Counted from the first letter of the stretch, positions 3,656-22,183 are shown. The stretch is DNA of 64,000 nt from Magnetococcales bacterium (GCA_002753565.1 PEAM01000007.1:7389-71388), one strand, 5' to 3'. Translations and numbers: made by a program. Notes: a model not told the origin generated them from the letters alone.

Positions 3656-3676
3656 CCGGCGTATGCTCTGTTTATT

Positions 3677-5023
3677 TTGCCTTATCAGGAACCTTCCCAT
3701 CCATTGAAAAAAATACCGACACCCCCTGTTCTACAGGATATCACACACTGTTTTGACTGGTTGGACAGACAAAACCTGATCCCCGACGAGCCTCTTATCG
3801 ACTCGCCTCCCGCACCAGAATTTGTGTTGAATGACAGGACAGTCATCTCCTTCTCTTCCAACAACTATTTGGGCTTAAGCAGACGTCCAGAGGTGATTGA
3901 GGCGGCAAGCCAGGCCCTGCACCGCTTTACCATGGGCACCTGTGAATCCAGACGGCTGGGGGGCAATATTGCCCTTCTCGAAGCCTTGGAAGAGCGCCTG
4001 GCCCGTTTTAAGGGGGTGGAGTCTGCCATGATTTTTGCGACCGGTCTGTTGGCCAATGTTGCGGTTATTCCCGGCTTGATGGATGCACAGTGGTACTGTA
4101 ACCGCTTTTATGGCCGCCCTTGGAGTGAGGAGGTGGGTACCCTTTTTTCCGATACCCTCAACCACCGCAGCATTCAAATGGGTATCCGTCTCTCTCACGC
4201 CTCCTGCCTTAAATATCGTCACGGCGATATGGCCCACCTGGAAATGCTCCTGGCTGGCTGTCAGACAGACAGAAAAATGATTGTCACCGATGGTATTTTC
4301 AGTATGGATGGAGACCTGGCCCCCCTGCCTGAAATTACCGCTCTGGCTAAAACCTATCAGGCGGCCGTTATGGTGGATGATGCCCATGGCACCGGCATTT
4401 TTGGCCAACACGGTCGAGGGGTAGCTGATCACTTTGGGGTTGAAGATCAAATCGATATCCACATGGGCACCCTAAGTAAAGCGGTCGGGGCCATGGGTGG
4501 TTTTATTGCCACCGACAGTAAAACAGTCGCCTTTTTAAAGTCCACCGCCTCCGGTTACCGTTTTACCTCCAGTTTACCGGCCGAGCAAGCGGCTGGCATC
4601 CTCTGTGCCATCGATATTATGGAGCAAGAACCACAACTTAGACAACAACTGTGGGACAATGTCGCCTATCTTCTCAAGGGCCTTCACGAACGCCAGATCC
4701 CCTATCCCAACCGTTGGTCCCCCATTATTCCCCTTTTTCTAGGCAGTGCAGAGAAAGCCTTTCGGGCTGAGCAACTTTTATTAAAACGTGGTCTCTCCTG
4801 TATCGCCATCATTCCGCCGCTGGTCCAGAACAACCGTTCCCGGCTAAGAATCACCCTTAATGCAACCCACACCTCCAACCATATCGACAGATTGCTGGAG
4901 GGGCTGGAAGAGATTGAGAAAACAATGGGCTTTCAACCAAACGGAGAGCCTCCACACACCTGGCAACAGGTTCAGTCCATGGCCCCTGCCTACATTTCGA
5001 TAATGCAGTCAAAGGTTACATAA
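3677..5023 (+). CDS. Alpha-oxoamine synthase family PLP enzyme (BioF/Kbl/SPT/CqsA-like)
   Basis: FSSNNYLGLSRRPEV, VMVDDAHGTGIFGQHGRG and the PLP-lysine motif GTLSKAVGAMGGF. TTG start is tentative (no clear RBS). There is an ~18-aa insertion relative to BioF as I recall it. Confidence 0.8.
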   Translation: MPYQEPSHPLKKIPTPPVLQDITHCFDWLDRQNLIPDEPLIDSPPAPEFVLNDRTVISFSSNNYLGLSRRPEVIEAASQALHRFTMGTCESRRLGGNIALLEALEERLARFKGVESAMIFATGLLANVAVIPGLMDAQWYCNRFYGRPWSEEVGTLFSDTLNHRSIQMGIRLSHASCLKYRHGDMAHLEMLLAGCQTDRKMIVTDGIFSMDGDLAPLPEITALAKTYQAAVMVDDAHGTGIFGQHGRGVADHFGVEDQIDIHMGTLSKAVGAMGGFIATDSKTVAFLKSTASGYRFTSSLPAEQAAGILCAIDIMEQEPQLRQQLWDNVAYLLKGLHERQIPYPNRWSPIIPLFLGSAEKAFRAEQLLLKRGLSCIAIIPPLVQNNRSRLRITLNATHTSNHIDRLLEGLEEIEKTMGFQPNGEPPHTWQQVQSMAPAYISIMQSKVT

Positions 5024-5284
5024 CACCACTCAACCCCTTTTATCATGGCAGATACCCTTGGAAAACAAAAAACAGTATACACAAATAAGTTATTGTTATT
5101 GCAGACTATCTAAGAATTCTAAAATCTATTCTTGCCTGACTCTTCCAATGCTGATACTGTTCGATTCAAACCGTGAGTAAACAGGTTTATTGGATAACGG
5201 AAACAGGACTCTTCCGTTAATATTTTCTTAAGAAACAGCCTTCATAGCTTTGAAGGGCTGTTACGACACACGTCAGTTGGTGGT

Positions 5285-5806
5285 ATGGCAAAACAATTAC
5301 TGATCATGCGACATGCAAAATCGGCCTGGGATACAGAAGCGGCAACCGATTTTGAACGTCCCCTGGCAAAACGCGGCAAAACCGATGCCCCACGTATGGG
5401 TAAATGGTTGGAAGAACAGGGTCTTATCCCCGACCATGTGGTCAGCTCCCCTGCCCAACGTGCCAAACAGACGACCATGAAAGTGTGTAAAGTCATGGAC
5501 GTCAAAAAATCCAAGGTCAACTGGGACCCTCGGGTCTATGGGGCCGGAACAGAAGATCTTCTGGAAACCCTGGCTGAAGTCCCTTCCAAAGCCTCTCGGG
5601 TGCTGCTGGTGGGCCATAACCCCGGCTTGGAGTTTCTCTTATCCTACCTGGCCAGCGAAGATGGTGAGGGGATCAGCCCGGAACACTATCTGATCAAAAC
5701 CGCCACGGTTGTTGTTCTTGACATGCCGGATGATTGGAAACACATCAAGCCTGGATCGGCCAAAGCCTTGAAGATTCAACACCCCAAGGAACTTGATTCC
5801 AACTAA
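5285..5806 (+). CDS. sixA: SixA-type phosphohistidine phosphatase (histidine phosphatase superfamily)
   Basis: 173 aa. LLIMRHAKSAW (RHG-type catalytic motif), SSPAQRAKQT, LLVGHNPGLEF; typical SixA length. Confidence 0.7.
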   Translation: MAKQLLIMRHAKSAWDTEAATDFERPLAKRGKTDAPRMGKWLEEQGLIPDHVVSSPAQRAKQTTMKVCKVMDVKKSKVNWDPRVYGAGTEDLLETLAEVPSKASRVLLVGHNPGLEFLLSYLASEDGEGISPEHYLIKTATVVVLDMPDDWKHIKPGSAKALKIQHPKELDSN

Positions 5807-5843
5807 AAAAGACTTGCTTTTAAACGGTTGAAGAAGATCTGTT

Positions 5844-7205
5844 ATGGATGATATTTTCCGCTTTCTCCAATCCGACCGTTCTCGTTGTCTGGACGATTTG
5901 ACCCGCTATTTAACCTTTGCCTCCATCTCCAGTGACCCCAACCGACAACCGGATATGGTGGCATGTGCCGACTTTACCGCTCTGCTGCTGGAGCAGGCCG
6001 GTCTGGATGCGGTCCAGGTTCACCCGACCAAGGGACACCCCATTGTTACCGCAAGTTGGAGAAAAGCCAAAGATCGGCCTACGGTTCTCATTTATGGACA
6101 CTATGATGTCCAGCCGGTAGACCCCCTCGCCCTTTGGGAACAGCCCCCCTTTTCACCCCATATTAAAAACGAACGGATTTTTGCCCGAGGTTCGGCAGAT
6201 GATAAAGGGCAGATCCTGATGCATATTCAGGCGGTCCGATCCATCTTGGCGACCCGTGGCGCTCTACCGGTTAATGTCTGTTTTATCATTGAGGGAGAGG
6301 AGGAGTTTGGTAGCGCCAATCTTCCCAACTTTCTTAAAAACCATCAAGACATGTTGCAGGCCGATGTCGCCCTGATTTCTGACTCCTCCATGTGGGATGA
6401 GGGGGTTCCTGCCATTACCACCTCCTTACGGGGTCTGCTCTTTCTGGAAATGACCCTGACCGGCCCCAATCGAGACCTCCATTCGGGCACCTTTGGCGGT
6501 GCCATCGCCAACCCACTGGAGGTGCTTGCCAAGATGCTGGCCTCGGTCAAAGATGACCAGGGAAGAGTAACCATACCCGGCTTCTATGATCGGGTTTTGC
6601 CCCCCTCTGAAGCGCTGAAAAAACAGCACAGAGACCTCCCTTTCAACCAAACCGCCTATCTGGACTCTCTGGGGCTCAAGGCCGGTTGGGGAGAGGCAGG
6701 CTATACCCTGCTGGAACAGCTTTGGCTGCGACCCACCTTTGAAATCAATGGGATGTGGGGAGGTTTTACGGAACCGGGAGCCAAAACCGTCCTCCCCTCT
6801 AAGGCCCATGCCAAGCTCTCTTTACGACTGGTTGGCGATCAAGAACCGGACGAAATGGAAGAGCTGGTCAGAGACTATTTTTATGCCCGTTTACCCGAGA
6901 CCGTCACCCTGACAATGGGTCGGGTAACAGGGGGAGGCCGCAGTGTCTCGGTTCCGGCGGACTTTCCAGCCCTTGCGGCAGCAAAAAAAGCGTTGACCGA
7001 AGCGTTCAACCAACCTCCTCTGCTGGTTGGCGAGGGGGCAACCATTCCGGTTGTGGCCGACTTGGAAAAACATCTCCACTTAACCACCCTGCTCATCGGC
7101 TTTGCACTGCCCGATGCCTGCCCCCACTCCCCCAACGAGAACCTGCACCTGCCCACTTTTCACACAGGAACCGAGAGTTTAGTCCGCTTACTCTTCCATC
7201 TGTAG
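5844..7205 (+). CDS. M20-family dipeptidase/acylase
   Basis: IYGHYDVQPVDP, ARGSADDKGQ, FIIEGEEEFGS (metal-binding H/D/E-E motifs of peptidase M20), 453 aa. Confidence 0.8.
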   Translation: MDDIFRFLQSDRSRCLDDLTRYLTFASISSDPNRQPDMVACADFTALLLEQAGLDAVQVHPTKGHPIVTASWRKAKDRPTVLIYGHYDVQPVDPLALWEQPPFSPHIKNERIFARGSADDKGQILMHIQAVRSILATRGALPVNVCFIIEGEEEFGSANLPNFLKNHQDMLQADVALISDSSMWDEGVPAITTSLRGLLFLEMTLTGPNRDLHSGTFGGAIANPLEVLAKMLASVKDDQGRVTIPGFYDRVLPPSEALKKQHRDLPFNQTAYLDSLGLKAGWGEAGYTLLEQLWLRPTFEINGMWGGFTEPGAKTVLPSKAHAKLSLRLVGDQEPDEMEELVRDYFYARLPETVTLTMGRVTGGGRSVSVPADFPALAAAKKALTEAFNQPPLLVGEGATIPVVADLEKHLHLTTLLIGFALPDACPHSPNENLHLPTFHTGTESLVRLLFHL

Positions 7206-12504: not shown

Positions 12505-14367
12505 ATGCCAATGGATTACCCACAAGATTCTCTCGATGCAAACGCAATTCCACAGGAAAAAGAGGTGGCAACGCGGCAAACATCCCAGCTACAGAACTTG
12601 AACCCATGGGTCAAACCCGCCTCCTCTCAACCTGAGCCTGAGCCAGAACCCTCGCCCAGGGAAGAGCCCCCCACCCCGTCTCAATCTGCCCCTGGTGCCA
12701 ACCCTTTTCGGCATGAGCAAACCAGCTTTCAACAGGCCACCAGCTCTTTGGACCACGAAAGTGATCTTTTACAGCGTCGTATTGAAGAGATTCAGGCACG
12801 AGAGTTGGAGACCGAGCAGTATTTAAAATCCCAAGAAAACTTTATCCAGCAGGCCAAAGCCGCTCTGGATCAGGAGATTGACGAACTGCAACGGCGAATC
12901 GACGAGGTGCAGGCACGAGAGAGCGAAATAGATCGCGCTATCCTGAATCAAGCGGGCTTGGAGCAAAAGGAGCTGCAATACCAACAGCGTGAAGCCCAAA
13001 TGCTGGCCCGTGAGGCCGAGTTGAACAATCGAATCTTGGCTCTTGAGGCCTCCCTTCAACAGAATGGGAAGAGTCTGGAGCAAGAAAAACAGGCCCTCGC
13101 AACCCAAGAAGCAGCCCTGCTAAGCCGTCAAGCGGAGTGGGAAAAAGCCAAAGAGGATCAAGACAAGAACCTGTTGGAGGCTCAGAATAGCTTGCAGGCC
13201 AAAGAGGCTCAGCTGAGAAGCAGAGAGGAAGAGTTGGCCAAACAAGAGAGGGAAAGCAGCTCACGCACCTCGCAGCAGCCTCTCTCATCAGCAACCGCTA
13301 CAGAACCTCTTAACGACCTTCAACGCCGTGAAGAGGCCCTCCAACTTCGGGAAGTGGCAAGCGAAAAAGCCTTTAATGAGCGGCAGTCGGCCTTAAACGA
13401 GGCTCAAAAGGGGCTGGACCGGCAACAAGAAGAGCTGGAAGACAAGAAAAAACAACTCAAAGAACAAGAAGACAGGGCGAAAAAGGCCTCCTTGGGAGAG
13501 GTCAACCTCATCCAAGAGGAGCTGGAAAAACACCCCTTGTCAGCCCCCACGCCACCAAGCTCCCCTTCAGCCAATCAGGCAGAGGGTTTTGAGGATTGGG
13601 GCAGCTCTCAGGCAACACAGCCACCCCCCAAAGAGCACGCCCGGCAACAAGAGACACCACACATCCAATCTCAGGATGCCGACTCTTTTGCCACCCAGCC
13701 AACCGATCCCAAGAGCCGGAAAAAACGGCTTATCACCCTTACCCTGGTCGCCTTACTGGGCACTCTGGCCCTGGCGCTCCTCTTTGGCCCCATCCAGAAG
13801 TGGTATGGCAGTGGCAACCCTTCTGCTTCCCAACCCGAGCAGGCTGCTCCACCGTCAGAGACGACTCCCCCCTCTCAAGGGGGTAAACAGGCCCAAGCTA
13901 TCCTACTGCAACCCATCGAAGAGGAGATGAATGCCGAGGAGCTTCTGGCCATTCAAGAGTCGTTAGCCAAACAGGCCTCTGCTGTCAATACGGCAGAGAG
14001 CCGACAGGCCACCCAGGAAGAACAGCAAAAAGCCGAAGCCCTTAAACAGGCCCAAGCGGAGCAGGCCAGAGCATTCCAGGCTATTTTATCGACAGTGGAT
14101 GGAGACATCCAATCCAACAGACTCAGCCGTCCTGCTGGCAATAATGCGTTGGAAAAGCTCCAATCCATTCTGGATATCGACCCTGAATTCGAAGCTGCCA
14201 AACAGGGGATGATCCGGGTGGCGGAAAAATATGTCATCCTGGCAGAAGGAGCTGTTCTCAAAAAACAGTGGGCCAGGGCCGAGCTACTGCTGTCTAAAGC
14301 CCGATCCATTCACCCTCCCCTGGCCTCCATCAATCGGGTCCAAACCCTGCTGGAAAACGCTCGATAG
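12505..14367 (+). CDS. Bitopic coiled-coil protein (Gln/Glu-rich cytoplasmic coiled coil, one TM helix, TPR-like C-terminal domain)
   Basis: 620 aa. Pro-rich N-terminus and a long heptad region with the internal repeat LLQRRIEEIQARELE / ELQRRIDEVQARESE. TM helix LITLTLVALLGTLALALLFGPI. C-terminal helical repeats (NNALEKLQSILDIDPEFEAAKQGM...). Confidence 0.7.
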   Translation: MPMDYPQDSLDANAIPQEKEVATRQTSQLQNLNPWVKPASSQPEPEPEPSPREEPPTPSQSAPGANPFRHEQTSFQQATSSLDHESDLLQRRIEEIQARELETEQYLKSQENFIQQAKAALDQEIDELQRRIDEVQARESEIDRAILNQAGLEQKELQYQQREAQMLAREAELNNRILALEASLQQNGKSLEQEKQALATQEAALLSRQAEWEKAKEDQDKNLLEAQNSLQAKEAQLRSREEELAKQERESSSRTSQQPLSSATATEPLNDLQRREEALQLREVASEKAFNERQSALNEAQKGLDRQQEELEDKKKQLKEQEDRAKKASLGEVNLIQEELEKHPLSAPTPPSSPSANQAEGFEDWGSSQATQPPPKEHARQQETPHIQSQDADSFATQPTDPKSRKKRLITLTLVALLGTLALALLFGPIQKWYGSGNPSASQPEQAAPPSETTPPSQGGKQAQAILLQPIEEEMNAEELLAIQESLAKQASAVNTAESRQATQEEQQKAEALKQAQAEQARAFQAILSTVDGDIQSNRLSRPAGNNALEKLQSILDIDPEFEAAKQGMIRVAEKYVILAEGAVLKKQWARAELLLSKARSIHPPLASINRVQTLLENAR

Positions 14368-14410: not shown

Positions 14411-15562
14411 TTAAAAATGAGAGAGGGAGGCTGGGGTAGAGTGGAACTCCCCTCTTTCGTAGAGGGCTTCAATTGTATGGTTGGTAATAACCCGGTTGAC
14501 TACCTCAAGCAGTGCCGGGTTCTCTACGGCCACCACATACTTGTCGTTATGGGTCAGTAATCTTTTTTCATCCAGATAGACCAGTCGGCTGTTTGGCCAG
14601 CGGCGGGCAATCAACTCATCGGTGACAAAAAACACCTCCCCCCGTGACTGATCTGTCATCAACTCTTGAGCAACCCCGGGAATTTCGGAGCTGGTTACGG
14701 TGGTCACCAGGTTGATTTTTGGCAGATGAGCATGAATAGCGTGGAGGCTGCTCCCCCCCTGCACCGCCACGACACTCTTTTGCTTGGAGTTTAACGAAGC
14801 AGAGGTACGTTTCATATCCCCCTCTCCAGGTAGAAATGTCCCCAAAACCAAACCGGTGGTGTAATAGGGCTTGGAAAGATAGGCAACTCTCTCCCGTTTA
14901 GCCGAGTGTGAAATAAGGCTGATATTGAGATCGGTAACCGCGTATCGCAGAGAGAAAAAACGGGAATCCAGGCTCCTCAACCGGGTAAAAACCGCTTTTT
15001 TTCCCAACTCTTCAGCAATTAGAAGGCCAAAATCGATAGCAGCCCCCTTCCACTCTTTGGTGTCATTGTCAAAATAGCTGATAAACCCCTGCTTATCCCG
15101 AACCCCAATACGAAGCAGCTTCTGGTCTTGAAAAAGCAGGGCGATGGGGTCTGAGTTGGGAGGTGGGCTCTCCTCCAGCCCTCTTTTATTGCTAAGAAGA
15201 AGGGAAATATCCCGACACCGCCCATCAGCTTGGTACTCTTCCTTAAACATCACCTCCGAATCCAGTGTCATCTTTTCCACCCGCCAAACGGGAGGAGCGG
15301 TCTCATCGGTAAAGGGTTGCTCCTGAAGATGGTGGTAGAGGGTCGTGCGAAAGAGGGTTTTCAACCCCTTGTTCTCTCGACTGTTATCGTCCAACCAAAA
15401 AGCGGGACAGACCCTCATCTTGATGTGCAGACTCTCTCCCACCCTCTTCTGGCTTGTGATGGTTGCTTTGGGTTGGATAAAGGAGGGGGAGATGGAGTAG
15501 ATATAGATGAACAGGATGGCAACGAGAAAAATGACCAGATGACTGGAATATCGCCCCTTCAT
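14411..15562 (-). CDS. Membrane-anchored periplasmic solute-binding-fold protein (SBP family 3-like)
   Basis: N-terminal TM helix (HLVIFLVAILFIYIYSI), ~130 aa of unknown sequence, then an SBP_bac_3-like pattern (LRIGVRDKQGFISYFDNDTKEWKGAAIDFGLLIAEELG ... SKPYYTTGLVL ... VAVQGGSSL). Confidence 0.7.
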   Translation of the reverse strand: MKGRYSSHLVIFLVAILFIYIYSISPSFIQPKATITSQKRVGESLHIKMRVCPAFWLDDNSRENKGLKTLFRTTLYHHLQEQPFTDETAPPVWRVEKMTLDSEVMFKEEYQADGRCRDISLLLSNKRGLEESPPPNSDPIALLFQDQKLLRIGVRDKQGFISYFDNDTKEWKGAAIDFGLLIAEELGKKAVFTRLRSLDSRFFSLRYAVTDLNISLISHSAKRERVAYLSKPYYTTGLVLGTFLPGEGDMKRTSASLNSKQKSVVAVQGGSSLHAIHAHLPKINLVTTVTSSEIPGVAQELMTDQSRGEVFFVTDELIARRWPNSRLVYLDEKRLLTHNDKYVVAVENPALLEVVNRVITNHTIEALYERGEFHSTPASLSHF

Positions 15563-15602
15563 GGATGACCACGCTCCCTCTCAAGAAACAGCTTCCCCAT
15601 GG

Positions 15603-18269
15603 TTAAAAAATCTCTCTGGCATTTAAAAACAGCCCCATCCGATGGTCGTCGGTGAGGAAATGTTTAACCAGTCTATTTTGGAAATAACGTGAAAACTGGC
15701 CGGAGACCGAGCTGGGCTGGCTGTCATCAATCAAGGTTAACAACGCTTGGGTGGTCTCAATCAGCATCTGATGCTTTTTGACATGGTTAGCCAGCTCCGG
15801 CCCCCCATGTTGATCAAAAAGCTTCTCCTCTGCGGCAAAGCAGTTTTCCATTTTTTCCAGGAAGGCCTGACAGGAGCTTTTTTGGTCACTTTTTTTGGCT
15901 TTTTTTTCTGTCATGACAGCGATAAAGTGACTCGCCATTTCAAACAGTCCTTGATGGTGATCATCAATGCTCTTTACACCAATTCGATAGGTATCCCGCC
16001 ACTGAAAAGCGATGGCGGAGTTAACATCGTGATTAATAATGGAGCGGCGACGTTTCTCTGTTTTTTCAAAAAGTTTCCAGAGAACAATAGGAATATCCCG
16101 CACCAATCTGGTGGGGATTTGATAAATTTCGATATCTCCCTTGGCCTCAACATCATAGGTTTGGGAGCGATCAAACAGAGCCGACTCCTCACCAAAATAG
16201 TCTCTTGGTCCCAATGTCTCGAAGATATTAGTACCCACTTTGCAGATTACCTGACCCGATTTAATCAGGCAGAGGGCGTGCTGATCCTTACCGGCGATGA
16301 TCTCTCCACTACCGAAGCTGGACACTTGAATGGCTTGCGCAATTTCATTCTGTTTCGGATAGGGAATCGCCTCACCAAACAGCTCGGTCTCCTGCAAAAA
16401 GCTGCGTAGTTCGTGGAGAACCTTGATCTGGGTATAGTAGTTGTTCTTTTGGACAAACCCCAGATAGAGCCGTCCAGGAAGCCGAACGGCTCGAACAAAA
16501 CTAGAGGCCCGGAAGGTGACCTGAGAGGCGGTATGATAAAGGCAGGAGATCTCCCCCAGCAAACTACCCGCAGAGAGGATACCGGAGATTCCCCAGTCCC
16601 CCTGAAGAACTTCAACCGTACCGGTTAGCACCAGATAGATATCGGCACTGACCTCCTTCTCCTTGCAGATGATGGTACCGGGATTGAAGGTCACGACCTC
16701 ATTGTTCAACAGACAGCGAAGCTGATTTTGGGAGGACTCCGGAAAATAGGTGCGCATATACTCATAGGCAATAGCAATGGCGGAGTCGCAGTAGTCTGGA
16801 ATCAAGACATCGGTGGTTCCAAAGGAGGCACTGGAGCCGATCTCCCGCTGCTCGGAGCTTAACGCAAACGAGGTGTGGGAGAGGATGATCTTATCGGATT
16901 GGTCGTTGATGAAGTCGACGGTTTCGCCGTGAATCATTCCACCTCCGACATCAATTTTTTTCAGATTGGCGGGCCGATCATATTTTTTTTGGATCTCATC
17001 AAAAAAACGTTGTGAAATACCCTGATCGCTCTCATCCGGAGAGACCATCCCTTTTAAAACCTTGAGGGCGACAATATCGGCATAGTGGGCATACGAGCGA
17101 TAGCCATCCTCTGCCAGAGTGCGAAAGATAAGAATGTTGGTTTCTACCGGATGGGGGGAATAATAGGGCTTAACCTCCAACCCATCGATATCATTCCAAC
17201 TATCCACCTTAAGATCGCGAATATCGAAATAGTGATAGAAATCTTCCTCCTCGATACTCAGAAGAGCAGACAACTTTTTAGCCACCGAGGCCCTCACCAG
17301 AGGGGTTGCAAAATATTTTATCCGATGCCCCGCACGGATCAAGGCGGTAATTCCGGCAAAATGGTCATCGTGGGCATGGGTGTGAAAAATACCTTCAATC
17401 TCACTGATACCAATTCCCAAAGCCTCTAAACTATAGATAAGATTAGGACCGGCATCGATAAGATAGAGGGAGCCCTGATACATGAGAATGCTCGACATAC
17501 AGGGGCGATTTATATCCCATCCATCCCCCTCGCCAGAGTGGATGACACCAAAATATTCACGTTTGATCTGGTACCGACCCAGTGGGTAGGGGGCATCGTA
17601 ACTCTCACCCAGAGCCAGATTAAGGTTGACGGAGACCGTCTCGCCGTCATAACTGATTTCAAAAATATTGAGTCGTATTCGACGGATAGTCACACCTTCT
17701 CGAATCTCTACTACCTCATTTTCCAGGGCAATCGACTCAAGCAGGCTGTCTGAAGGGTGGATGTTACCAAAAGCAAACTTAAGTTTAAGACGCATCATCT
17801 CTACAGCTTCAGGCTCCGACAGACCGGCCTCCATCAACTCCTCCTTGGAGATCAAGCCGTAATTGCCCCGATAGATGTAACGCATCTGGGCCTGAACCTG
17901 TTCTGAAGTACCGATCAGCAGAGGTTTGGCTCCGGTATTGTTGGGGTGGTTGGGGATAATCATCCCCTGGCGATAGAGCATTTGCAGGACGGGAAATTCA
18001 GCCAGGTTGGAAAAATGGCCGTTTTGCAAAAGAACATCAGAGAGTAAAATGGTGTTGGGGCCGGTTTCGAAGGTTGCCCCGTTTTGTTCGGTGCTGATAA
18101 TAAGGCCACGTTTCATCAGGTGTTTAACCGAGTCCGCCGGGCATCCACACAACATATAGAGACCTGCATCGGGGACCTCAATCCAAAAAACACCGTCTAT
18201 AATCTTAATCTTTCTTATTTTTTTCATGCCAGCGACCCCATTTTCTCTTCCCAAACCGCTCCTCATCAA
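15603..18269 (-). CDS. Multidomain protein: unknown N-domain + metallo-beta-lactamase-fold hydrolase + 2x cyclic-nucleotide-binding + hemerythrin-like domain
   Basis: MBL motif FHTHAHDDHFAG (HxHxDH). cNMP beta-roll motifs (GSLLGEISCL...FRASS; DYFGEESALFDRS). Hemerythrin-like tail (FQWRDTYRIGVKSIDDHHQGLFEM, HVKKHQ, VKHFLTDDH). Alternative starts are ATG 18266 or ATG 18227 (MKKIRKIKII...). Confidence 0.85.
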   Translation of the reverse strand: MMRSGLGRENGVAGMKKIRKIKIIDGVFWIEVPDAGLYMLCGCPADSVKHLMKRGLIISTEQNGATFETGPNTILLSDVLLQNGHFSNLAEFPVLQMLYRQGMIIPNHPNNTGAKPLLIGTSEQVQAQMRYIYRGNYGLISKEELMEAGLSEPEAVEMMRLKLKFAFGNIHPSDSLLESIALENEVVEIREGVTIRRIRLNIFEISYDGETVSVNLNLALGESYDAPYPLGRYQIKREYFGVIHSGEGDGWDINRPCMSSILMYQGSLYLIDAGPNLIYSLEALGIGISEIEGIFHTHAHDDHFAGITALIRAGHRIKYFATPLVRASVAKKLSALLSIEEEDFYHYFDIRDLKVDSWNDIDGLEVKPYYSPHPVETNILIFRTLAEDGYRSYAHYADIVALKVLKGMVSPDESDQGISQRFFDEIQKKYDRPANLKKIDVGGGMIHGETVDFINDQSDKIILSHTSFALSSEQREIGSSASFGTTDVLIPDYCDSAIAIAYEYMRTYFPESSQNQLRCLLNNEVVTFNPGTIICKEKEVSADIYLVLTGTVEVLQGDWGISGILSAGSLLGEISCLYHTASQVTFRASSFVRAVRLPGRLYLGFVQKNNYYTQIKVLHELRSFLQETELFGEAIPYPKQNEIAQAIQVSSFGSGEIIAGKDQHALCLIKSGQVICKVGTNIFETLGPRDYFGEESALFDRSQTYDVEAKGDIEIYQIPTRLVRDIPIVLWKLFEKTEKRRRSIINHDVNSAIAFQWRDTYRIGVKSIDDHHQGLFEMASHFIAVMTEKKAKKSDQKSSCQAFLEKMENCFAAEEKLFDQHGGPELANHVKKHQMLIETTQALLTLIDDSQPSSVSGQFSRYFQNRLVKHFLTDDHRMGLFLNAREIF

Positions 18270-18515
18270 GCGCCATCCACTTTTGCCAAGTAACTTACTG
18301 TAACGAAATAGATTAGGCTAACCATCACCACGCTCTCTATTCAATCATGGCACAATAAGCCTGCTTTTGCAGAGATGCAACCAACAAGTCATAACCATAT
18401 GAAAAAAATGATAAATATAAAGACATACCGACGAATGGTGATAGCCGGTGCCAATAAAGAACTCTATTCCCGTTTTTTCAGAGTTGTCGGTCCGACAAAA
18501 AAGCCTACGAATTGG

Positions 18516-18550
18516 CCTGAAAATATTTGACAGGCTCTCCTGTTTTCAGG
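18516..18550 (-). terminator. Weak candidate terminator after cobC
   Basis: CCTGAAAA (18516-18523) / TTTTCAGG (18543-18550), with a nested ACAGG-AGAG-CCTGT hairpin on the minus strand followed by CAAATATTTT. It starts 7 nt after the cobC stop. Confidence 0.3.
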
Positions 18551-18556
18551 CTACCT

Positions 18557-19189
18557 TCAGGGGTCCAGACCATCCGCATGGAAAAAAATCAATCGTGGAA
18601 TGGGGGTATCACCAATCTGTTCTATACGAACCCGTGATAGCGCAGCATAGGGAACCAACAGCCGGGAAAGGTTGGTTAGTGGAATACCCAACAGCATGCC
18701 CAAAGCCACACGAATCACACCGCTGTGGGCGATAAAAAGCAGGTGTTCACCTCGATACTGTTCCAACATGATCTGCCAGGCCACCGCCACTCTGTCATGA
18801 ACCGCCTGGATAGACTCCCCCCCTGGAGGGGTATTGGCCAGGGGGTTTTTCCAAAAATTCTGCACAGGGATGCGATAGCGCTTATCTTCCAGAAGCTCTT
18901 TTTTGCTCTTTCCCTCCCACAATCCAAAGCCCATCTCTCGAAAGCCCGGCTCAAGCTCAAAGGGAATAGACCGCTCCTCCGCGGTTTTAGCGGCAAATTG
19001 GGCACAGCGTATCAGAGGAGAGGAGATGATTCTCTGCCAGGGGGCTGGATGGTCATCAAGGGTTTTTTGCATCTGCTTCCAACCCAGGGGGCTGAGAGGG
19101 TCATCCAGGGTGCCCCGATATTTCTGCCCACCCAGCGGCTCACCATGGCGGAGAAAGTCAATGGTTGTGGTTGGGTGGGTTGTCATCAC
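18557..19189 (-). CDS. cobC: Alpha-ribazole phosphatase-type histidine phosphatase
   Basis: IDFLRHGEP (RHG motif) and LLFIAHSGVIR. 210 aa. ATGA overlap with cobT upstream supports the CobC assignment. Confidence 0.7.
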   Translation of the reverse strand: MMTTHPTTTIDFLRHGEPLGGQKYRGTLDDPLSPLGWKQMQKTLDDHPAPWQRIISSPLIRCAQFAAKTAEERSIPFELEPGFREMGFGLWEGKSKKELLEDKRYRIPVQNFWKNPLANTPPGGESIQAVHDRVAVAWQIMLEQYRGEHLLFIAHSGVIRVALGMLLGIPLTNLSRLLVPYAALSRVRIEQIGDTPIPRLIFFHADGLDP

Positions 19190-20244
19190 GACTCCAGTTC
19201 ATCAATAAGAATCATCTCTTTATGAATAACACAAGCCATGCGGAGCAGTGACAACGCAGCCGTAGCCCCGGTCCCCTCCCCCAGATGCATATCGAGATGA
19301 AGAATCGGTTGACCGGAGATTGCCCGCAGCAACGACAATTGACCCGGCTCGGCTGAACGGTGGCCAAACAGCAGCCACTCCCGCAGGGGTGGGTGAATGG
19401 AGACCGCAACCAGAGCGGCGGTTGCGGCGACAAACCCATCGACAATAGCTGGTATACCCCGCTGACCGCAGGCTATAAAGGCGCCACAGAGGGCGGCCGC
19501 CTCAAACCCCCCTAACGCGCGCAGAGCCTGAAGAGGCTGTTTGATGGTGGGTAGATGGAGCGCAAGAGCTGTTTCGATAATCTTGGCTTTTTGGGCCATC
19601 CCTTCCGGAGACCCACCTGAACCCGGCCCAGAGATGGTATCCGGCGAGATACCCAACAGGGCGCTGGTAATGGCAGCGGCAGAAATACTCTTGCCGATCG
19701 CAATCTCCCCTCCGACAAAAATTTGCACCCCACCCTGACTGGCCCGTTCCACCGCCTCCTGACCGGCCAGCAGCGCCATAACCAACTGCTCTTCTGTCAT
19801 GGCCGGCCCCACCTGAAAATTTCGGGTGCCCCTTCCGGCGCTACAGTTGATCAAACCGGGGAGTTCGGCAATCTTCTCCGCCATGCCCGCATTGACCACC
19901 TCCATTTCGAAACCCAGATGCCGGGCCATGATGGAGACGGCTCCTCGACCACTCAGTACCGTCTTGACCCGTTGCAGGGTTGAGACCTGGCTGTAGGGAG
20001 AGGCCCCTTGATAGCTGGCCGCCTCGACCACACCGTGGTCGGCGGCAAAGACGACAATTCTTGCAATATCCACCGAGGGGGTCGGGCTGTTCTGCATACC
20101 GGCCAGACGGATTAGAGCATCCTCTAAAACACCTAGAGAACCAAGGGGTTTAGCCATCTTGGAAAGCCGTTTCCGCGCCTGATTTTTTGCGGCTTCTGAA
20201 ACAGGTAAGATGGGTTGCTTGATCCAGGCAGTTGACACGGACAT
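19186..20244 (-). CDS. cobT: Nicotinate-nucleotide--dimethylbenzimidazole phosphoribosyltransferase
   Basis: Hallmark AKPLGSLGVLEDALIRLAGMQ and a Gly-rich C-terminal half. The track ORF extends to a TTG at 20289. ATG 20244 (MSVSTAW...) gives the usual ~30 aa before the KPxGSLG motif. Confidence 0.9.
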   Translation of the reverse strand: MSVSTAWIKQPILPVSEAAKNQARKRLSKMAKPLGSLGVLEDALIRLAGMQNSPTPSVDIARIVVFAADHGVVEAASYQGASPYSQVSTLQRVKTVLSGRGAVSIMARHLGFEMEVVNAGMAEKIAELPGLINCSAGRGTRNFQVGPAMTEEQLVMALLAGQEAVERASQGGVQIFVGGEIAIGKSISAAAITSALLGISPDTISGPGSGGSPEGMAQKAKIIETALALHLPTIKQPLQALRALGGFEAAALCGAFIACGQRGIPAIVDGFVAATAALVAVSIHPPLREWLLFGHRSAEPGQLSLLRAISGQPILHLDMHLGEGTGATAALSLLRMACVIHKEMILIDELES

Positions 20245-20393
20245 ACTCCAATCTTGAGTAACAGGAACCCCCGACTCCGTTGATACCAATCTAGAAGATA
20301 TCCCATATTACGCCCCAAAGACCAGGAGATGCTTCGTCAGGGCACTGCCCTGTGTTGAGGGTGGAAGGGCAACACCCTAAAAATCCCCAGCTT

Positions 20394-22055
20394 TTATTGC
20401 TCTGGAATCAGTGTCGTCACAAATCCCTCTCTGGCAAAGCGCTTCTTGAAAGCCCGCTGGGCCTCTTGAGCGTCGGCTTTATCCTTAAAACGTCCCAGAC
20501 GAAGCAGATACCAGGTTTGGTTCTCTTTATCCACACGGGTTTGTGTAAACAGTTCAGCCCCTTTTTCTGCCCACTTGGCCCGAAATTTTTCTGCCCCCTC
20601 CTCACCCCGAAAAGCGGCAACCTGCACTGTCCAACGCGGTTTGACAAAAGAGACCACCGGATGCACAATCCCTGTATCGGTCACTATCGAGGGGGTGGTC
20701 GACTCTTCATGAGAGAGAGGTATGGGCAGCGCGTCAGAGGGGGATATTGGGGAGACCAGTTGAAACCCCTCCCCTTCGGGTGTCAGCTTACCGACCACCT
20801 TCAGGAGTTCAAACAGAGCCAGATTAACGGCAAACTGACTTTTAACCTGCTCGGTCTGAGTAGAAAACAGCTCATTTTGGGCATCGAGAAGATCCAGAGA
20901 GGTGCGTGAACCCACCTCGTACTCCTGGTCAACCCCCTCTTTAGCCTCTTTGGCGGCAGCAACCGCCGTTTTCAAGGCCTCATCAGAGGCTTTGGCACTC
21001 TGATATTTGGAAAGTACCTGCTTCAACTCCCGAACTGCCTTCTCTTGGAGTAGGTCCAGACCCGCCCGGCTGGCACTCTCATCCGACTGCGCCTGTTGAG
21101 TCTGTGCCGTTGTCAAACCACCGGAATAGAGAGGAAGGGAGGCCGAAACCGAAAGAGAGAAGCTATCCACCGGCCCCACCACAGAAGAGGAGGCCGGGTC
21201 CCAGGTTCGTGAACCGCTGGAGCTAAGAGAGAGGGTGGGATAGTGTCCGGCTTTTTTGGCCTGGACCCGAAAGGAGTCTGCCTCCAATCGATAGCGGGCC
21301 GCCTGGATATCGGGTCGGTTCTGGGCCAGAGGGGTCAGGATTGCCAGAGAGGCGTTGGGCAGCTGGCTTTGGACCAGAGGAACCTGCAGCCCTTCCGGCA
21401 CAGCTATTCCGGCTATCTCTTGAAATTGCGCCTCATTCACCTTGCCCTCTCCCACACGACGAATCCAATCGGCCTCGGCGGTTGCCACCCGTGCTCTGGC
21501 CTGGCTGACATCGGTTTTTGTCACCTCTCCAACAGAAAAACGGGCTTTGGTTGCCTCCAGATGGCGTTTGGTCACATCCAGATTGTTCTTGGCCAGAAGA
21601 GCCACTTCTCGCGCCTCCAACAAGGCTGTAGAAATCTGAATCAAGGAGAAATAGACCCCCTGACGAGCCGCTTCCAGATCCTGCTCAAAGGCCATGACCA
21701 ACGGCTCAACCCGTCTCATCTCCTCGAAGGCCTGCTGGTTGAATAGGGGCTGGCTTAAAGAGAGGCTCATGGTGGTGGGGTCATAATCTGAATTCCCCCC
21801 CTTCCATCGGCTCTCCTCGTAGGAGGAGCTCCAACCTAGAGAGAGGGTAGGCAGTATGGCGGATCGAGCTTGAGGGTAGAGGGTCAGAGCGGAGTCCAGG
21901 CGAGCCTGGGCCTGCTTGATCTGACCATTGGAAGCCAGGGCCTCTTGAACCGAACGAAAAAACGGCGATAAGGGTTTCTCAACCGCCCCCCCCTCTCCTG
22001 ATAGGGCAAACAGTCCCACCACCCCCGCAATTGTCAATAAGCCAGATCTATTCAT
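20394..22055 (-). CDS. TolC-family outer-membrane efflux factor with a C-terminal SPOR (peptidoglycan-binding) domain
   Basis: Signal peptide MNRSGLLTIAGVVGLFALS (ATG 22055; the track ORF starts at 22115). Two OEP-type repeats. The last ~75 aa, WTVQVAAFRGEEGAEKFRAKW...WYLLRLGRFKDKADAQEAQRAFKKRF, match the SPOR pattern. Confidence 0.85.
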   Translation of the reverse strand: MNRSGLLTIAGVVGLFALSGEGGAVEKPLSPFFRSVQEALASNGQIKQAQARLDSALTLYPQARSAILPTLSLGWSSSYEESRWKGGNSDYDPTTMSLSLSQPLFNQQAFEEMRRVEPLVMAFEQDLEAARQGVYFSLIQISTALLEAREVALLAKNNLDVTKRHLEATKARFSVGEVTKTDVSQARARVATAEADWIRRVGEGKVNEAQFQEIAGIAVPEGLQVPLVQSQLPNASLAILTPLAQNRPDIQAARYRLEADSFRVQAKKAGHYPTLSLSSSGSRTWDPASSSVVGPVDSFSLSVSASLPLYSGGLTTAQTQQAQSDESASRAGLDLLQEKAVRELKQVLSKYQSAKASDEALKTAVAAAKEAKEGVDQEYEVGSRTSLDLLDAQNELFSTQTEQVKSQFAVNLALFELLKVVGKLTPEGEGFQLVSPISPSDALPIPLSHEESTTPSIVTDTGIVHPVVSFVKPRWTVQVAAFRGEEGAEKFRAKWAEKGAELFTQTRVDKENQTWYLLRLGRFKDKADAQEAQRAFKKRFAREGFVTTLIPEQ

Positions 22056-22183
22056 GAAAGTCAGTCCACACCCATTTATAAGTTTCGTTAAGTTATTAAA
22101 CGTAGCACATCCCATTGCTGATAGGAATCCAACTCAACCCAAGCAAGCTAAAAAAATCCATCCCCTGGGTTAGAAGAGAGAGA

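What the first reader, a model, noticed from the sequence alone, without database searches (positions are those of the whole stretch)
14411..18269. 888-aa fusion of an unknown N-domain, an MBL hydrolase, two cNMP-binding domains and a hemerythrin, co-oriented with a membrane-anchored SBP-fold protein
Seen in sequence: one uninterrupted minus-strand ORF contains four parts in order. First come ~270 aa with no motif I recognise (IIDGVFWIEVPDAGLYMLCGCPADSVKHLMKRGLI...). Next is an MBL core (LIDAGPN ... FHTHAHDDHFAG = HxHxDH). Then come two beta-roll cNMP-binding-like modules (AGSLLGEISCLYHTASQVTFRASS and LGPRDYFGEESALFDRSQTYDVEA). Last is a hemerythrin-like helical tail (FQWRDTYRIGVKSIDDHHQGLFEM ... 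CFAAEEKLF ... HVKKHQML ... VKHFLTDDHRM). One usual His-ligand position (HFxxEE) reads CFAAEE. Forty nt downstream on the same strand lies a 383-aa protein with a TM anchor, ~130 unknown residues and a family-3 solute-binding fold. Established knowledge: MBL folds include class-II cyclic-nucleotide phosphodiesterases and nucleases; CAP-type domains bind cAMP/cGMP; bacteriohemerythrins bind O2 or sense Fe/NO through a diiron site. Inference: this is a hydrolase gated jointly by a cyclic nucleotide and by O2 or redox state, for example an O2-tuned, ligand-activated cNMP phosphodiesterase, possibly coupled to a periplasmic ligand through the SBP partner. I know of no characterised enzyme with this domain order. 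No nucleotide cyclase is encoded nearby.
Basis: partly seen in the sequence, partly recalled or inferred. Interest (0 to 1): 0.7.

Follow-up and report, generated by a model that had tools for sequence, protein, structure and literature searches.

The report
Sensor-regulated metallo-hydrolase with hemerythrin tail
This gene belongs to a widespread but unstudied bacterial family in which a highly conserved two-part metallo-hydrolase core, probably a phosphodiesterase, is wired to interchangeable sensor domains, here two atypical cyclic-nucleotide-like domains and an oxygen/redox-sensing hemerythrin.

Summary
One minus-strand ORF encodes N-domain, MBL hydrolase, two CNB-fold domains and a hemerythrin, with an SBP_bac_3 gene 40 nt downstream. 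The start is better placed at the ATG at 18227 (874 aa). The interpretation needs revising.

1. The architecture is common: more than 3000 proteins and at least 479 species genomes across many phyla, about 50% identical. I found no bacterial characterisation.
2. The "unknown" N-domain is family-specific (286 clusters in 1.84 billion). It is as conserved as the catalytic domain (62-66% between phyla, against 23-28% for hemerythrin) and always directly precedes the MBL. This N+MBL core also occurs alone, or fused to REC, GAF, CHASE2 or SBP_bac_3 sensors, which marks it as a signalling output module.
3. Both CNB domains lack the canonical phosphate-binding Arg (present in 2 and 5 of 193 sequences). 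Classical cAMP/cGMP gating is therefore doubtful.
4. A characterised enzyme with MBL followed by two CNB domains does exist: the Dictyostelium GbpA/GbpB cNMP phosphodiesterases.
5. The SBP neighbour is kept only in three close relatives.
6. The His-to-Cys hemerythrin ligand change is fixed in this clade.

Best reading: an O2/redox- and ligand-regulated phosphodiesterase, substrate unknown. It is a new variant of a known kind, of moderate interest.

The parts
15603..18227 (-). Gene for the 874-aa multidomain enzyme. The ORF is open up to the TTG at 18269, but the ATG at 18227 is the likely start.
   Evidence: All homologs start at MxK[IL]RKI, and the identical NCBI protein is 874 aa.
17583..18227 (-). 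N-domain (aa 1-215). It is family-specific and has no Pfam, NCBIfam or PDB sequence match. Invariant residues include C27, P30, D32, K35, E54, G56, P57, S63, D64, Q68, E77, F78 and R120-G-N-Y-G-L125. It may be a degenerate MBL-like fold.
   Evidence: no hits. (286 clusters only, always N-terminal to the MBL). (62-64% identity between phyla). (weak Foldseek hits to RNase J, PNGM-1, CPSF-73, RNase Z). (hhalign against the MBL not significant).
16782..17582 (-). Catalytic MBL-fold domain (aa 216-482) with a complete metal-ligand set: D258, H284-x-H286-x-D288-H289, H359, D384 (and H381), H451 (and H433).
16392..16781 (-). CNB-fold domain A (aa ~483-612). The PBC reads GEISCLYHTASQVTFRA, with Ser568 at the position of the canonical phosphate-binding Arg.
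   Evidence: alignment to PfPKG; Arg in 2 of 193.
16023..16391 (-). CNB-fold domain B (aa ~613-735). The PBC reads GEESALFDRSQTYDVEA, with Gln689 at the canonical Arg position. A long helix follows, leading to the hemerythrin.
   Evidence: Arg in 5 of 193.
15606..16010 (-). Bacteriohemerythrin-type four-helix domain (aa ~740-874). The ligand pattern is H758, C796, E800, H815, H819, H856, D861. The family consensus has His at 796.
   Evidence: TIGR02481, 72.6 bits; McHr, DcrH-Hr.
14411..15562 (-). Downstream co-oriented gene encoding a 383-aa membrane-anchored periplasmic SBP_bac_3-fold protein. It has its own RBS (GAGGGAG) and lies 40 nt after the enzyme's stop with no terminator-like hairpin between. 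It is probably co-transcribed.
   Evidence: Conserved only in L002 and L003.
15482..15538 (-). N-terminal TM anchor of the SBP-like protein (aa 9-27).
   Evidence: Kyte-Doolittle 2.27. K and R precede it, so the N-terminus is expected to be cytoplasmic (inference from the positive-inside rule).
14483..15115 (-). SBP_bac_3 domain of the partner protein (aa 150-360).
   Evidence: E 1.7e-8, 34.7 bits against cutoff 26.4.
18228..18556 (-). Upstream intergenic region. Two terminator-like hairpins (18501-18543) follow the preceding His_Phos gene, so the enzyme gene probably has its own promoter.
   Evidence: These are consensus scans only.

Best explanation
The gene encodes a cytoplasmic member of a widespread, so far uncharacterised bacterial family of signal-regulated MBL-fold hydrolases.

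Core: the constant unit is the N-domain (aa 1-215) fused directly to a dinuclear-metal MBL catalytic domain (aa 216-482). This core behaves as a signalling output module.

Most likely chemistry (inferred): phosphodiester hydrolysis of a small nucleotide messenger of the cNMP type. This would parallel Dictyostelium GbpA/GbpB and the Apyc1 and class II PDE enzymes.

Regulation (inferred): the core is probably a dimer controlled by modules on both flanks.
- The tandem CNB-fold domains at the C-terminus form a built-in allosteric module. They lack the phosphate-clamping Arg, so they probably bind something other than cAMP/cGMP in the classical mode. A nucleoside or reaction product is one option, as in trypanosome PKA-R. 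Another is that they act as a ligand-free autoinhibitory or dimerisation element.
- The C-terminal hemerythrin reports O2 or redox state through a diiron site and modulates activity, as in Bhr-DGC and DcrH. In this clade one His ligand is a fixed Cys, which should change the site's reactivity.

Shown: the domains, the intact MBL ligands, the missing Arg, the His-to-Cys change, the distribution, the modular architectures and the lack of a conserved neighbourhood.

Inferred: the substrate class, the direction of regulation and the dimeric state.
For: Domain calls. Invariant MBL ligands.

Best MBL relatives, all partial matches: RNase Z (NCBIfam, 38 bits) and Apyc1 (PDB profile E 2.5e-6).

The family is large and phylogenetically broad.

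The N-domain is restricted to this family and always adjoins the MBL. N and MBL are the most conserved parts, at 62-66% identity between phyla.

Alternative architectures:
- REC-, GAF-, CHASE2-TM- and SBP_bac_3-TM-core fusions, all joined through a conserved 'AMxNLxT' helix.
- Core alone, about 480 aa.
- Core-CNB2 with and without hemerythrin.
- Core-CNB2 plus a third, canonical CNB (PRSAT).

Such sensor repertoires are typical of second-messenger enzymes (established knowledge for GGDEF, EAL, HD-GYP and cyclases).

The canonical PBC Arg is absent. The tandem CNB fold resembles PKA-R, and the hits include the nucleoside-binding trypanosome PKA-R.

The hemerythrin profile matches McHr and DcrH-Hr at E ~1e-21. 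The HCEHHHD ligand pattern is fixed over a clade at 70-100% identity.

The protein has no TM segment.

Dictyostelium precedent for MBL followed by two cNB domains (PMC11988041).
Against: - No biochemical data exist for any bacterial member that I could find.
- Similarity of the MBL domain to any characterised enzyme is confined to the generic motif I-III region, so the substrate class is not established.
- No consistent genomic link to cyclases: 5 of 76 loci.
- Identity of 62-66% across phyla in the core is unusually high for a small-molecule PDE. It could point to a macromolecular substrate or partner, or to recent horizontal transfer.
- Homology to GbpA/GbpB could not be tested.
- The Cys substitution might abolish diiron binding in this particular protein.
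Confidence: 0.5

Rival explanations
1. A GbpA-like enzyme: a cAMP/cGMP phosphodiesterase allosterically activated by its own substrate binding to the two CNB domains, and additionally tuned by O2 through the hemerythrin.
For: Same MBL-CNB-CNB order as Dictyostelium GbpA/GbpB, which are cNMP-activated cNMP PDEs (PMC11988041, PMC8684759). The cNMP_binding Pfam score is well above threshold. The Gly-Glu of the PBC is retained. The close relative L002 has a GAF-GAF-PAS class III cyclase two genes upstream.
Against: The phosphate-binding Arg is replaced in both CNB domains in nearly all 193 family members. One family member (P0223) adds a third CNB with a canonical PRSAT cassette, which suggests the resident pair does not do that job. 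No cyclase was found in this window, and there is no general cyclase linkage.
Confidence: 0.2
2. A signal-regulated ribonuclease or nuclease. The N-domain is a degenerate MBL-like half that pairs with the catalytic MBL, like the pseudo-dimer of long-form tRNase Z (ELAC2), and provides an RNA-binding surface. The sensors gate RNA cleavage.
For: The best, though weak, structural matches of the N-domain model are RNase J, CPSF-73, RNase Z/ZipD, ELAC1 and PNGM-1 (E 6e-3 to 0.1, probability up to 0.95). The top NCBIfam hits for the MBL are RNase Z models. The core's very high conservation would fit a conserved macromolecular substrate. The N-domain's secondary-structure order resembles the first two-thirds of an MBL fold.
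Against: TM-scores are only 0.3-0.42 with rmsd 6-10 Å. Profile-profile comparison of the N-domain against the MBL is not significant. RNase Z model scores are far below cutoff (38 against 293 bits). CHASE2, REC, GAF and CNB inputs are far more typical of second-messenger enzymes than of RNases (established knowledge). No beta-CASP domain or RNase Z exosite was detected.
Confidence: 0.15
3. An MBL enzyme with non-phosphodiesterase chemistry under sensor control. Candidates are a lactonase, glyoxalase-II-like thioesterase, sulfatase, persulfide dioxygenase or a redox-active diiron site.
For: The HxHxDH set is shared by all these classes. The best single-sequence PDB hit is an arylsulfatase (8gyg, E 5.9e-5), with lactonase and beta-lactamase hits further down the list. 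Hemerythrin, and the microaerophilic or anaerobic hosts, would suit redox chemistry.
Against: All such hits cover only motifs I-II. With the family profile, Apyc1 outranks them, and in NCBIfam the RNase Z models do. The motif is HxHxDH, not the HxExDH of flavodiiron proteins. There is no flavodoxin or rhodanese partner domain.
Confidence: 0.1
4. Add-on hypothesis. The downstream membrane-anchored SBP_bac_3 protein delivers a periplasmic ligand signal to the enzyme.
For: The two genes are probably co-transcribed, with a 40-nt gap and no terminator. The pair is kept in L002 and L003. In other Magnetococcales an SBP_bac_3 domain is fused through one TM helix to the same core (P0138).
Against: The pair is present in only 3 of 82 loci, all close relatives that also share CobT, His_Phos and the OEP gene, so the synteny may simply be inherited. 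The SBP protein has about 8 cytoplasmic residues and the enzyme has no TM segment. There is no BLAST similarity between this SBP and the fused one.
Confidence: 0.1

Closest known systems
Dictyostelium discoideum GbpA (PdeD/PDE5) and GbpB (PdeE/PDE6), 'class IIb' cNMP phosphodiesterases
   Same: An MBL-type catalytic domain followed by two cyclic-nucleotide-binding-fold domains in the same order. Both are cytosolic, and the CNB tandem regulates the hydrolase (PMC11988041, PMC8684759).
   Different: In GbpA/B the cNB domains bind cGMP/cAMP and activate the enzyme. Here both lack the canonical Arg. GbpA/B have no hemerythrin. Whether they share the N-domain, or are homologous at all and not just convergent, could not be tested because the sequences were not retrievable with these tools.
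Apyc1 (anti-Pycsar MBL cyclic-mononucleotide phosphodiesterase; PDB 7u2s, 7u2r; PF23023)
   Same: The best solved MBL relative of the family profile: E 2.5e-6 over motifs I-III. It has HxHxDH-type dinuclear phosphodiesterase chemistry and is a homodimeric RNase Z-like MBL (established knowledge).
   Different: The score is 21.8 bits against a Pfam cutoff of 50, so this is not a member. Apyc1 is a ~250-aa single-domain phage protein with no N-domain or sensors. There is no defence-system context here.
RNase Z / long-form tRNase Z (ELAC1/ELAC2)
   Same: The top NCBIfam partial hits for the MBL domain. RNase Z, ELAC1, RNase J and CPSF-73 are the best weak structural matches of the N-domain. The idea of a degenerate MBL half preceding a catalytic half parallels ELAC2.
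   Different: Far below the family cutoffs (38 against 293 bits). Internal duplication is not supported by profile comparison. No exosite or beta-CASP insertions were detected.
Hemerythrin-coupled signalling proteins (Vibrio cholerae Bhr-DGC, Desulfovibrio DcrH, Bhr-HD-GYP proteins)
   Same: A bacteriohemerythrin domain appended to a signalling enzyme or receptor as an O2/redox input. The family profile matches DcrH-Hr and Methylococcus McHr at E ~1e-21.
   Different: The output here is an MBL hydrolase, not GGDEF, HD-GYP or MCP. In this clade the first His ligand of helix 2 is Cys, a ligand set I do not know from characterised hemerythrins (my own knowledge).
Trypanosoma PKA regulatory subunit (cAMP-independent, nucleoside-binding; PDB 6flo, 6hyi)
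   Same: A tandem CNB fold in which the canonical PBC Arg is replaced and cAMP is not the ligand. It appears among the structural matches.
   Different: It regulates a kinase, not a hydrolase. The ligand-contact residues were not compared in detail. This is a functional analogy only.

Membership tests
Metallo-beta-lactamase superfamily (PF00753 / PF12706) | HMM score above the curated cutoff | tested here: met
   Lactamase_B 35.4 against 22.7. Lactamase_B_2 28.6 against 27.
Metallo-beta-lactamase superfamily (PF00753 / PF12706) | Five metal-binding motifs: D, HxHxDH, H, D/C, H | tested here: met
   D258, H284/H286/D288/H289, H359, D384 and H451 are invariant in 73 of 73 sequences.
Class IIb cNMP phosphodiesterase (Dictyostelium GbpA/GbpB type) | MBL catalytic domain followed by two CNB domains | tested here: met
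   Architecture as described in PMC11988041.
Class IIb cNMP phosphodiesterase (Dictyostelium GbpA/GbpB type) | CNB domains competent for cAMP/cGMP binding (canonical PBC Arg) | tested here: not met
   S568 and Q689 in the window protein. Arg is present in 2 of 193 and 5 of 193 family members.
Class IIb cNMP phosphodiesterase (Dictyostelium GbpA/GbpB type) | Sequence homology of the catalytic region to GbpA/GbpB | not testable with these tools
   The primary papers are not held. The sequences cannot be reached through the protein searches, which list only the best 120-150 hits.
Class IIb cNMP phosphodiesterase (Dictyostelium GbpA/GbpB type) | cNMP hydrolysis stimulated by cNMP | not testable with these tools
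   Needs an enzyme assay.
Class IIa cNMP phosphodiesterase (PF02112, yeast PDE1 / Vibrio CpdP type) | Match to the PDEase_II profile | tested here: not met
   No PF02112 hit at E <= 1.
Apyc1 (PF23023) | HMM score above the gathering cutoff (50 bits) | tested here: not met
   21.8 bits, covering residues 265-319 only.
RNase Z (TIGR02651 / NF000801) | Equivalog score above cutoff | tested here: not met
   37.9 against 292.95, and 38.2 against 252.
Cyclic nucleotide-binding domain (PF00027) | HMM score above cutoff, two copies | tested here: met
   73.3 against 27.5 bits, two stretches. PKA-R-like tandem fold.
Bacteriohemerythrin | Domain HMM above cutoff | tested here: inconclusive
   TIGR02481 72.6 against 51.75, met. 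NF033749 65.7 against 84, not met. PF01814 24.2 against 25.3, just under.
Bacteriohemerythrin | Seven diiron ligands (H, H, E, H, H, H, D) | tested here: not met
   Six of seven are present, with C796 replacing His. The family consensus has all seven.
Bacteriohemerythrin | Bound diiron centre with O2/redox reactivity | not testable with these tools
   Needs metal analysis and UV-vis spectroscopy.
SBP_bac_3 (partner protein) | HMM score above cutoff | tested here: met
   34.7 against 26.4. No NCBIfam equivalog reached its cutoff.

The most novel reading that the evidence does not exclude
The N-domain+MBL core is a previously unrecognised output module of bacterial signal transduction: a sensor-controlled phosphodiesterase for a nucleotide messenger, possibly a non-canonical one. 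Its invariant N-domain forms a second, non-catalytic or differently catalytic, MBL-like site. Its Arg-less CNB tandem senses a non-cyclic ligand such as a nucleoside or reaction product. In this clade a Cys-ligated hemerythrin variant provides a new type of redox input. This would add a new enzyme class to second-messenger turnover in microaerophiles and anaerobes such as magnetotactic bacteria, anammox bacteria, sulfate reducers and iron oxidisers.
Probability: 0.3. Interest if true: 0.75.

Novelty: new variant of a known kind. Interest (0 to 1): 0.55.

Why it matters
If the core is a messenger phosphodiesterase, bacteria would have a fourth, unrecognised class of sensor-regulated second-messenger hydrolase alongside EAL, HD-GYP and CpdA-type enzymes. 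It is present in hundreds of species living at oxic-anoxic interfaces and is wired to REC, GAF, CHASE2, SBP, CNB and hemerythrin inputs.

The family also offers three things:
- A natural test case for what CNB folds do when the phosphate-binding Arg is lost.
- A hemerythrin with a Cys ligand.
- A 215-residue domain, about 63% identical between phyla, with no known relative.

It may also be the bacterial counterpart, or the source, of the unusual Dictyostelium GbpA/GbpB phosphodiesterases. Cultured hosts that encode it, such as Paramagnetospirillum magneticum, are genetically tractable (established knowledge), so the question can be tested directly.

Tried and rejected
- **Conserved operon or partner.** I called ORFs and clustered 1153 of them from 82 loci. 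No neighbour family recurs beyond generic ABC ATPases, histidine kinases and response regulators. A conserved SBP partnership is rejected.
- **Cyclase linkage.** An iterative (jackhmmer) search with a class III cyclase domain found a cyclase near only 5 of 76 loci, and none in the window.
- **Internal duplication (N-domain as degenerate MBL) by sequence.** hhalign on full and partial sub-profiles gave probability <1% and P ~0.1. Sequence does not support it; only weak fold evidence remains.
- **N-domain against PDB sequences.** Zero hits at E <= 10.
- **BFVD search with the full model.** Uninformative.
- **Anti-phage defence role, suggested by the Apyc1 and Pycsar resemblance.** PADLOC gives only sub-threshold hits caused by the CNB fold.
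- **Riboswitch or other RNA upstream.** No credible Rfam match.
- **Literature on the bacterial family.** Nine searches found nothing. MGMSRv2_1306 in PMC5459824 is only an unrelated 'cNMP-binding' mention.
- **Dictyostelium primary papers** (PMC133599, PMC133600, PMC124474). Not held.
- **Exact-sequence look-up of the AMB-1 homolog.** Not on record.

Full report
**1. The observation**

The window carries an uninterrupted minus-strand ORF at 15603..18269 (888 aa from a TTG). A second ORF, 14411..15562 (383 aa), lies 40 nt downstream on the same strand. A 100%-identical NCBI protein from a Magnetococcales MAG is 874 aa. Every homolog starts at M-x-K-[IL]-R-K-I. The start is therefore best placed at the ATG at 18227, which has a G-rich ribosome-binding stretch upstream. 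I number residues from that Met.

- Two cNMP_binding domains: 73.3 bits against cutoff 27.5.
- Lactamase_B and Lactamase_B_2, both above cutoff.
- A hemerythrin domain: TIGR02481 72.6 against 51.75; Pfam PF01814 just under its cutoff.
- Nothing at all for the first ~215 residues.

The neighbour is an SBP_bac_3 protein (34.7 against 26.4 bits) with one N-terminal TM-like segment.

**2. How common it is**

The protein search returned more than 3000 significant hits. The best 120 are almost all about 870 aa, with the same Pfam set, at about 50% identity. They come from Magnetococcales, Magnetospirillum/Paramagnetospirillum, Phaeospirillum, Candidatus Kuenenia, Candidatus Magnetomorum/Magnetoglobus, Anaerolineae and Actinomycetota. 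They are annotated only as 'bacteriohemerythrin' or 'cyclic nucleotide-binding protein'.

A scan of one genome per species found at least 479 species with a relative. Additional groups include Desulfobacterales, Campylobacterota, Nitrospinota, Gallionellaceae, Rhodocyclaceae, Acidobacteriota, Lentisphaerota, SAR324 and one Promethearchaeota MAG. The hosts are largely microaerophiles and anaerobes of redox gradients. Some genomes hold two copies (L040 and L074; L005 and L062). The architecture is thus common, although I found no paper on any bacterial member in nine full-text searches.

**3. What is conserved**

In a 73-sequence alignment the MBL metal ligands are invariant: D258, H284-x-H286-x-D288-H289, H359, D384 and H451. 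The catalytic site is intact.

Identity between the window protein and homologs from other phyla, by domain:

| Domain | Identity |
|---|---|
| N-domain | 62-64% |
| MBL | 63-66% |
| CNB-A | 43-49% |
| CNB-B | 33-41% |
| Hemerythrin | 23-28% |

The 'unknown' N-domain is as constrained as the catalytic domain. It has a dense set of invariant polar residues: C27, P30, D32, K35, E54, G56, P57, S63, D64, Q68, E77, F78 and R120-G-N-Y-G-L125. Several flanking positions are nearly invariant, including G28, C29, H36 and N58.

**4. The N-domain defines the family, and the core is a modular output**

A profile of residues 1-215 was run against 1.84 billion representative proteins. It found only 286 clusters at E <= 1e-3, of which 230 were at E <= 1e-10. 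In every hit long enough to show it, the N-domain is directly followed by the MBL. The one exception among hits of 430 aa or more is P0143 (443 aa), where only the N-domain was detected.

Among representatives of at least 430 aa, the architectures are:

| Architecture | Count or examples |
|---|---|
| N-MBL-CNB | 35, plus 7 with a further C-terminal stretch of >100 aa unmatched by the family's domain profiles |
| N-MBL-CNB-hemerythrin | 17 |
| N-MBL alone, about 480 aa | 11, plus 6 with a further C-terminal stretch of >100 aa |
| REC-N-MBL-CNB | P0121, P0130; P0129 is a 703-aa form in which Pfam detects no CNB |
| GAF-N-MBL-CNB | P0147 |
| CHASE2-TM-N-MBL-CNB | P0133 |
| Signal peptide-SBP_bac_3-TM-N-MBL-CNB | P0138 |
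| Core-CNB2 plus a third CNB with canonical 'PRSAT' and a 325-aa tail | P0223 |

These are real genes on long contigs, up to 949 kb. All N-terminal fusions join the N-domain through a short conserved helix ('AMxNLxT'). That is the arrangement expected if upstream sensors transmit through a signalling helix into a dimeric output. A constant catalytic core with interchangeable REC, GAF, CHASE2, SBP, CNB and hemerythrin inputs is the signature of a signalling output domain. The same is established for GGDEF, EAL, HD-GYP and class III cyclases.

**5. What fold is the N-domain?**

The full-length AlphaFold model is confident (pLDDT 88.4, pTM 0.84). The isolated N-domain model is less so (78.5).

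Foldseek against the PDB gives no hit at E <= 1e-3. The best weak hits are nevertheless all MBL-fold enzymes: RNase J (E 6e-3, probability 0.95), PNGM-1, CPSF-73, E. coli ZipD/RNase Z, an arylsulfatase, human ELAC1 (TM 0.42) and Thermotoga tRNase Z.

The order of secondary-structure elements (three strands, helix, strands, loop, helix, strand, helices, five strands) resembles the first two-thirds of the catalytic MBL in the same chain.

I therefore treat 'degenerate MBL-like half, as in long-form tRNase Z' as a lead and not a result.

**6. The CNB domains are atypical**

phmmer aligns both cassettes to Plasmodium PKG. The canonical Arg of 'R-[ST]-A-T' falls opposite Ser568 in CNB-A (GEISCLYHTA**S**QVTFRA) and Gln689 in CNB-B (GEESALFDRS**Q**TYDVEA). 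The downstream T(+3), R(+5) and A(+6) are in register with MlotiK1, HCN2 and CAP (register from my own knowledge of those sequences).

Across 193 family members, Arg occupies these positions in 2 and 5 sequences. The usual residues are Ser/Ala in CNB-A, and Ser, Ala, Pro, Gly or Gln in CNB-B. The Gly-Glu of the cassette is mostly kept.

In PKA, PKG, CAP, Epac and HCN/CNG this Arg clamps the cyclic phosphate and is required for binding (established knowledge). CNB folds without it bind other ligands or none. Examples are trypanosome PKA-R (nucleosides), which appears among the structural matches, and KCNH channels, CooA and CprK. P0223 adds a third CNB with a canonical cassette, which also suggests the resident pair has another role. 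Classical cAMP/cGMP gating is thus not supported, although non-canonical binding cannot be excluded.

**7. The hemerythrin**

The family profile matches Methylococcus bacteriohemerythrin and Desulfovibrio DcrH-Hr at E ~1e-21. The family consensus has all seven ligands. The window protein, its relatives at 70-100% identity (P0001-P0006) and P0135 share the pattern H-C-E-H-H-H-D. The Cys is fixed in a clade while all other ligands are retained. This looks like a maintained functional variant and not decay. Its effect on metal binding is unknown. About 15% of the close homologs, and most representative clusters, lack the hemerythrin altogether, so it is one optional input among several.

**8. Genomic context**

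ORFs from 82 loci were clustered. No neighbour family is conserved.

The SBP_bac_3 gene follows the enzyme only in the window, L002 and L003. These three Magnetococcales also share the upstream OEP/SPOR, CobT and His_Phos genes, so the synteny can be inherited. The SBP protein is 55% identical among them, like the flanking housekeeping genes, whereas the enzyme is 70-74% identical.

In L002 a PilZ gene, a GAF-GAF-PAS class III cyclase and a 322-aa unknown are inserted upstream. The window lacks them. Class III cyclases lie within 10 kb in only 5 of 76 loci.

The enzyme has no TM segment. The SBP protein has only about 8 cytoplasmic residues. Direct signalling between them is therefore hard to picture. 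The SBP_bac_3-TM-core fusion in other Magnetococcales (P0138) shows that this sensor class can feed the core, but its SBP domain shows no BLAST similarity to the window's.

No terminator-like hairpin separates the two genes. Two lie upstream of the enzyme gene.

**9. Comparison with what is known**

Dictyostelium GbpA (PdeD/PDE5) and GbpB (PdeE/PDE6) are 'class IIb' PDEs. They have an MBL catalytic domain followed by two cNB domains, and cGMP/cAMP binding to those domains activates hydrolysis (PMC11988041; PMC8684759). This is the closest functional model. Homology could not be tested, because the sequences and primary papers were out of reach.

By sequence, the MBL part is nearest to Apyc1 (profile E 2.5e-6, motifs I-III) and to RNase Z models. 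It is far below every family cutoff, and there is no class IIa PDE (PF02112) match. There is no sign of a defence-system role.

**10. Verdict**

Most likely (about 0.5): a cytoplasmic, probably dimeric, sensor-regulated MBL phosphodiesterase acting on a nucleotide messenger. An Arg-less CNB tandem serves as a non-classical allosteric module, and a Cys-variant hemerythrin provides an O2/redox input.

Rivals:
- A regulated RNase with a pseudo-MBL N-half (0.15).
- Other MBL chemistry (0.1).

It is, however, a widespread family, and its MBL-CNB-CNB arrangement has a characterised eukaryotic precedent. I rate it a new variant of a known kind, with interest 0.55.

Noticed in passing
L002:3921-7672 (between the His_Phos gene and the enzyme homolog): In the 74%-identical relative, three genes are inserted divergently upstream: a PilZ protein, a 767-aa GAF-GAF-PAS class III nucleotide cyclase and a 322-aa protein with no Pfam hit. 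The window has only a ~330-bp intergenic region here.
   Followed up: partly
P0223 (1167 aa; representative-library hit): This family member has a third CNB domain with a canonical 'GE...PRSAT' cassette after the two Arg-less ones, followed by a ~325-aa C-terminal region with no Pfam match.
   Followed up: partly
P0121, P0133, P0138, P0147 (residues just before the N-domain): All N-terminal sensor fusions (REC, CHASE2, SBP_bac_3, GAF) join the N-domain through a short conserved helix of the form 'A-[MV]-x-N-L-x-[TK]'. It looks like a signalling helix.
   Followed up: partly
L073 (Promethearchaeota MAG JAIWHJ010000010.1), match at 3670-5850: A short-form family member (no hemerythrin, 56% identical) sits on a 13.6-kb contig assigned to an Asgard archaeon. 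Horizontal transfer or a binning error was not resolved.
   Followed up: no
window 12505..14367 (+): A 620-aa convergent ORF, rich in Glu, Gln, Pro and Ala. It has long coiled-coil-like repeats ('LQRRIEEIQARE...' occurs twice) and one hydrophobic segment near residue 420. Its function is unknown and it ends 44 nt from the SBP gene's stop.
   Followed up: no
L001, L007, L010 (Kuenenia and a Planctomycetota MAG): In these three loci a ~762-aa gene lies divergently upstream of the enzyme gene (PriA helicase in L001). This is lineage-specific synteny that differs from the Magnetococcales arrangement.
   Followed up: no
L040 and L074 (Magnetospirillum sp. UT-4); L005 and L062 (one Magnetococcales MAG): Some genomes carry two paralogs. 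One has a long (hemerythrin) and a short (no hemerythrin) form together.
   Followed up: no
window 18557..20289 (-) and 20394..22115 (-): Upstream, in the same orientation: a His_Phos_1 (CobC-like) phosphatase overlapping a CobT-like phosphoribosyltransferase by 4 nt, then an outer-membrane-efflux/SPOR-like protein. These assignments are carried over from the Pfam calls on the syntenic L002 genes.
   Followed up: partly
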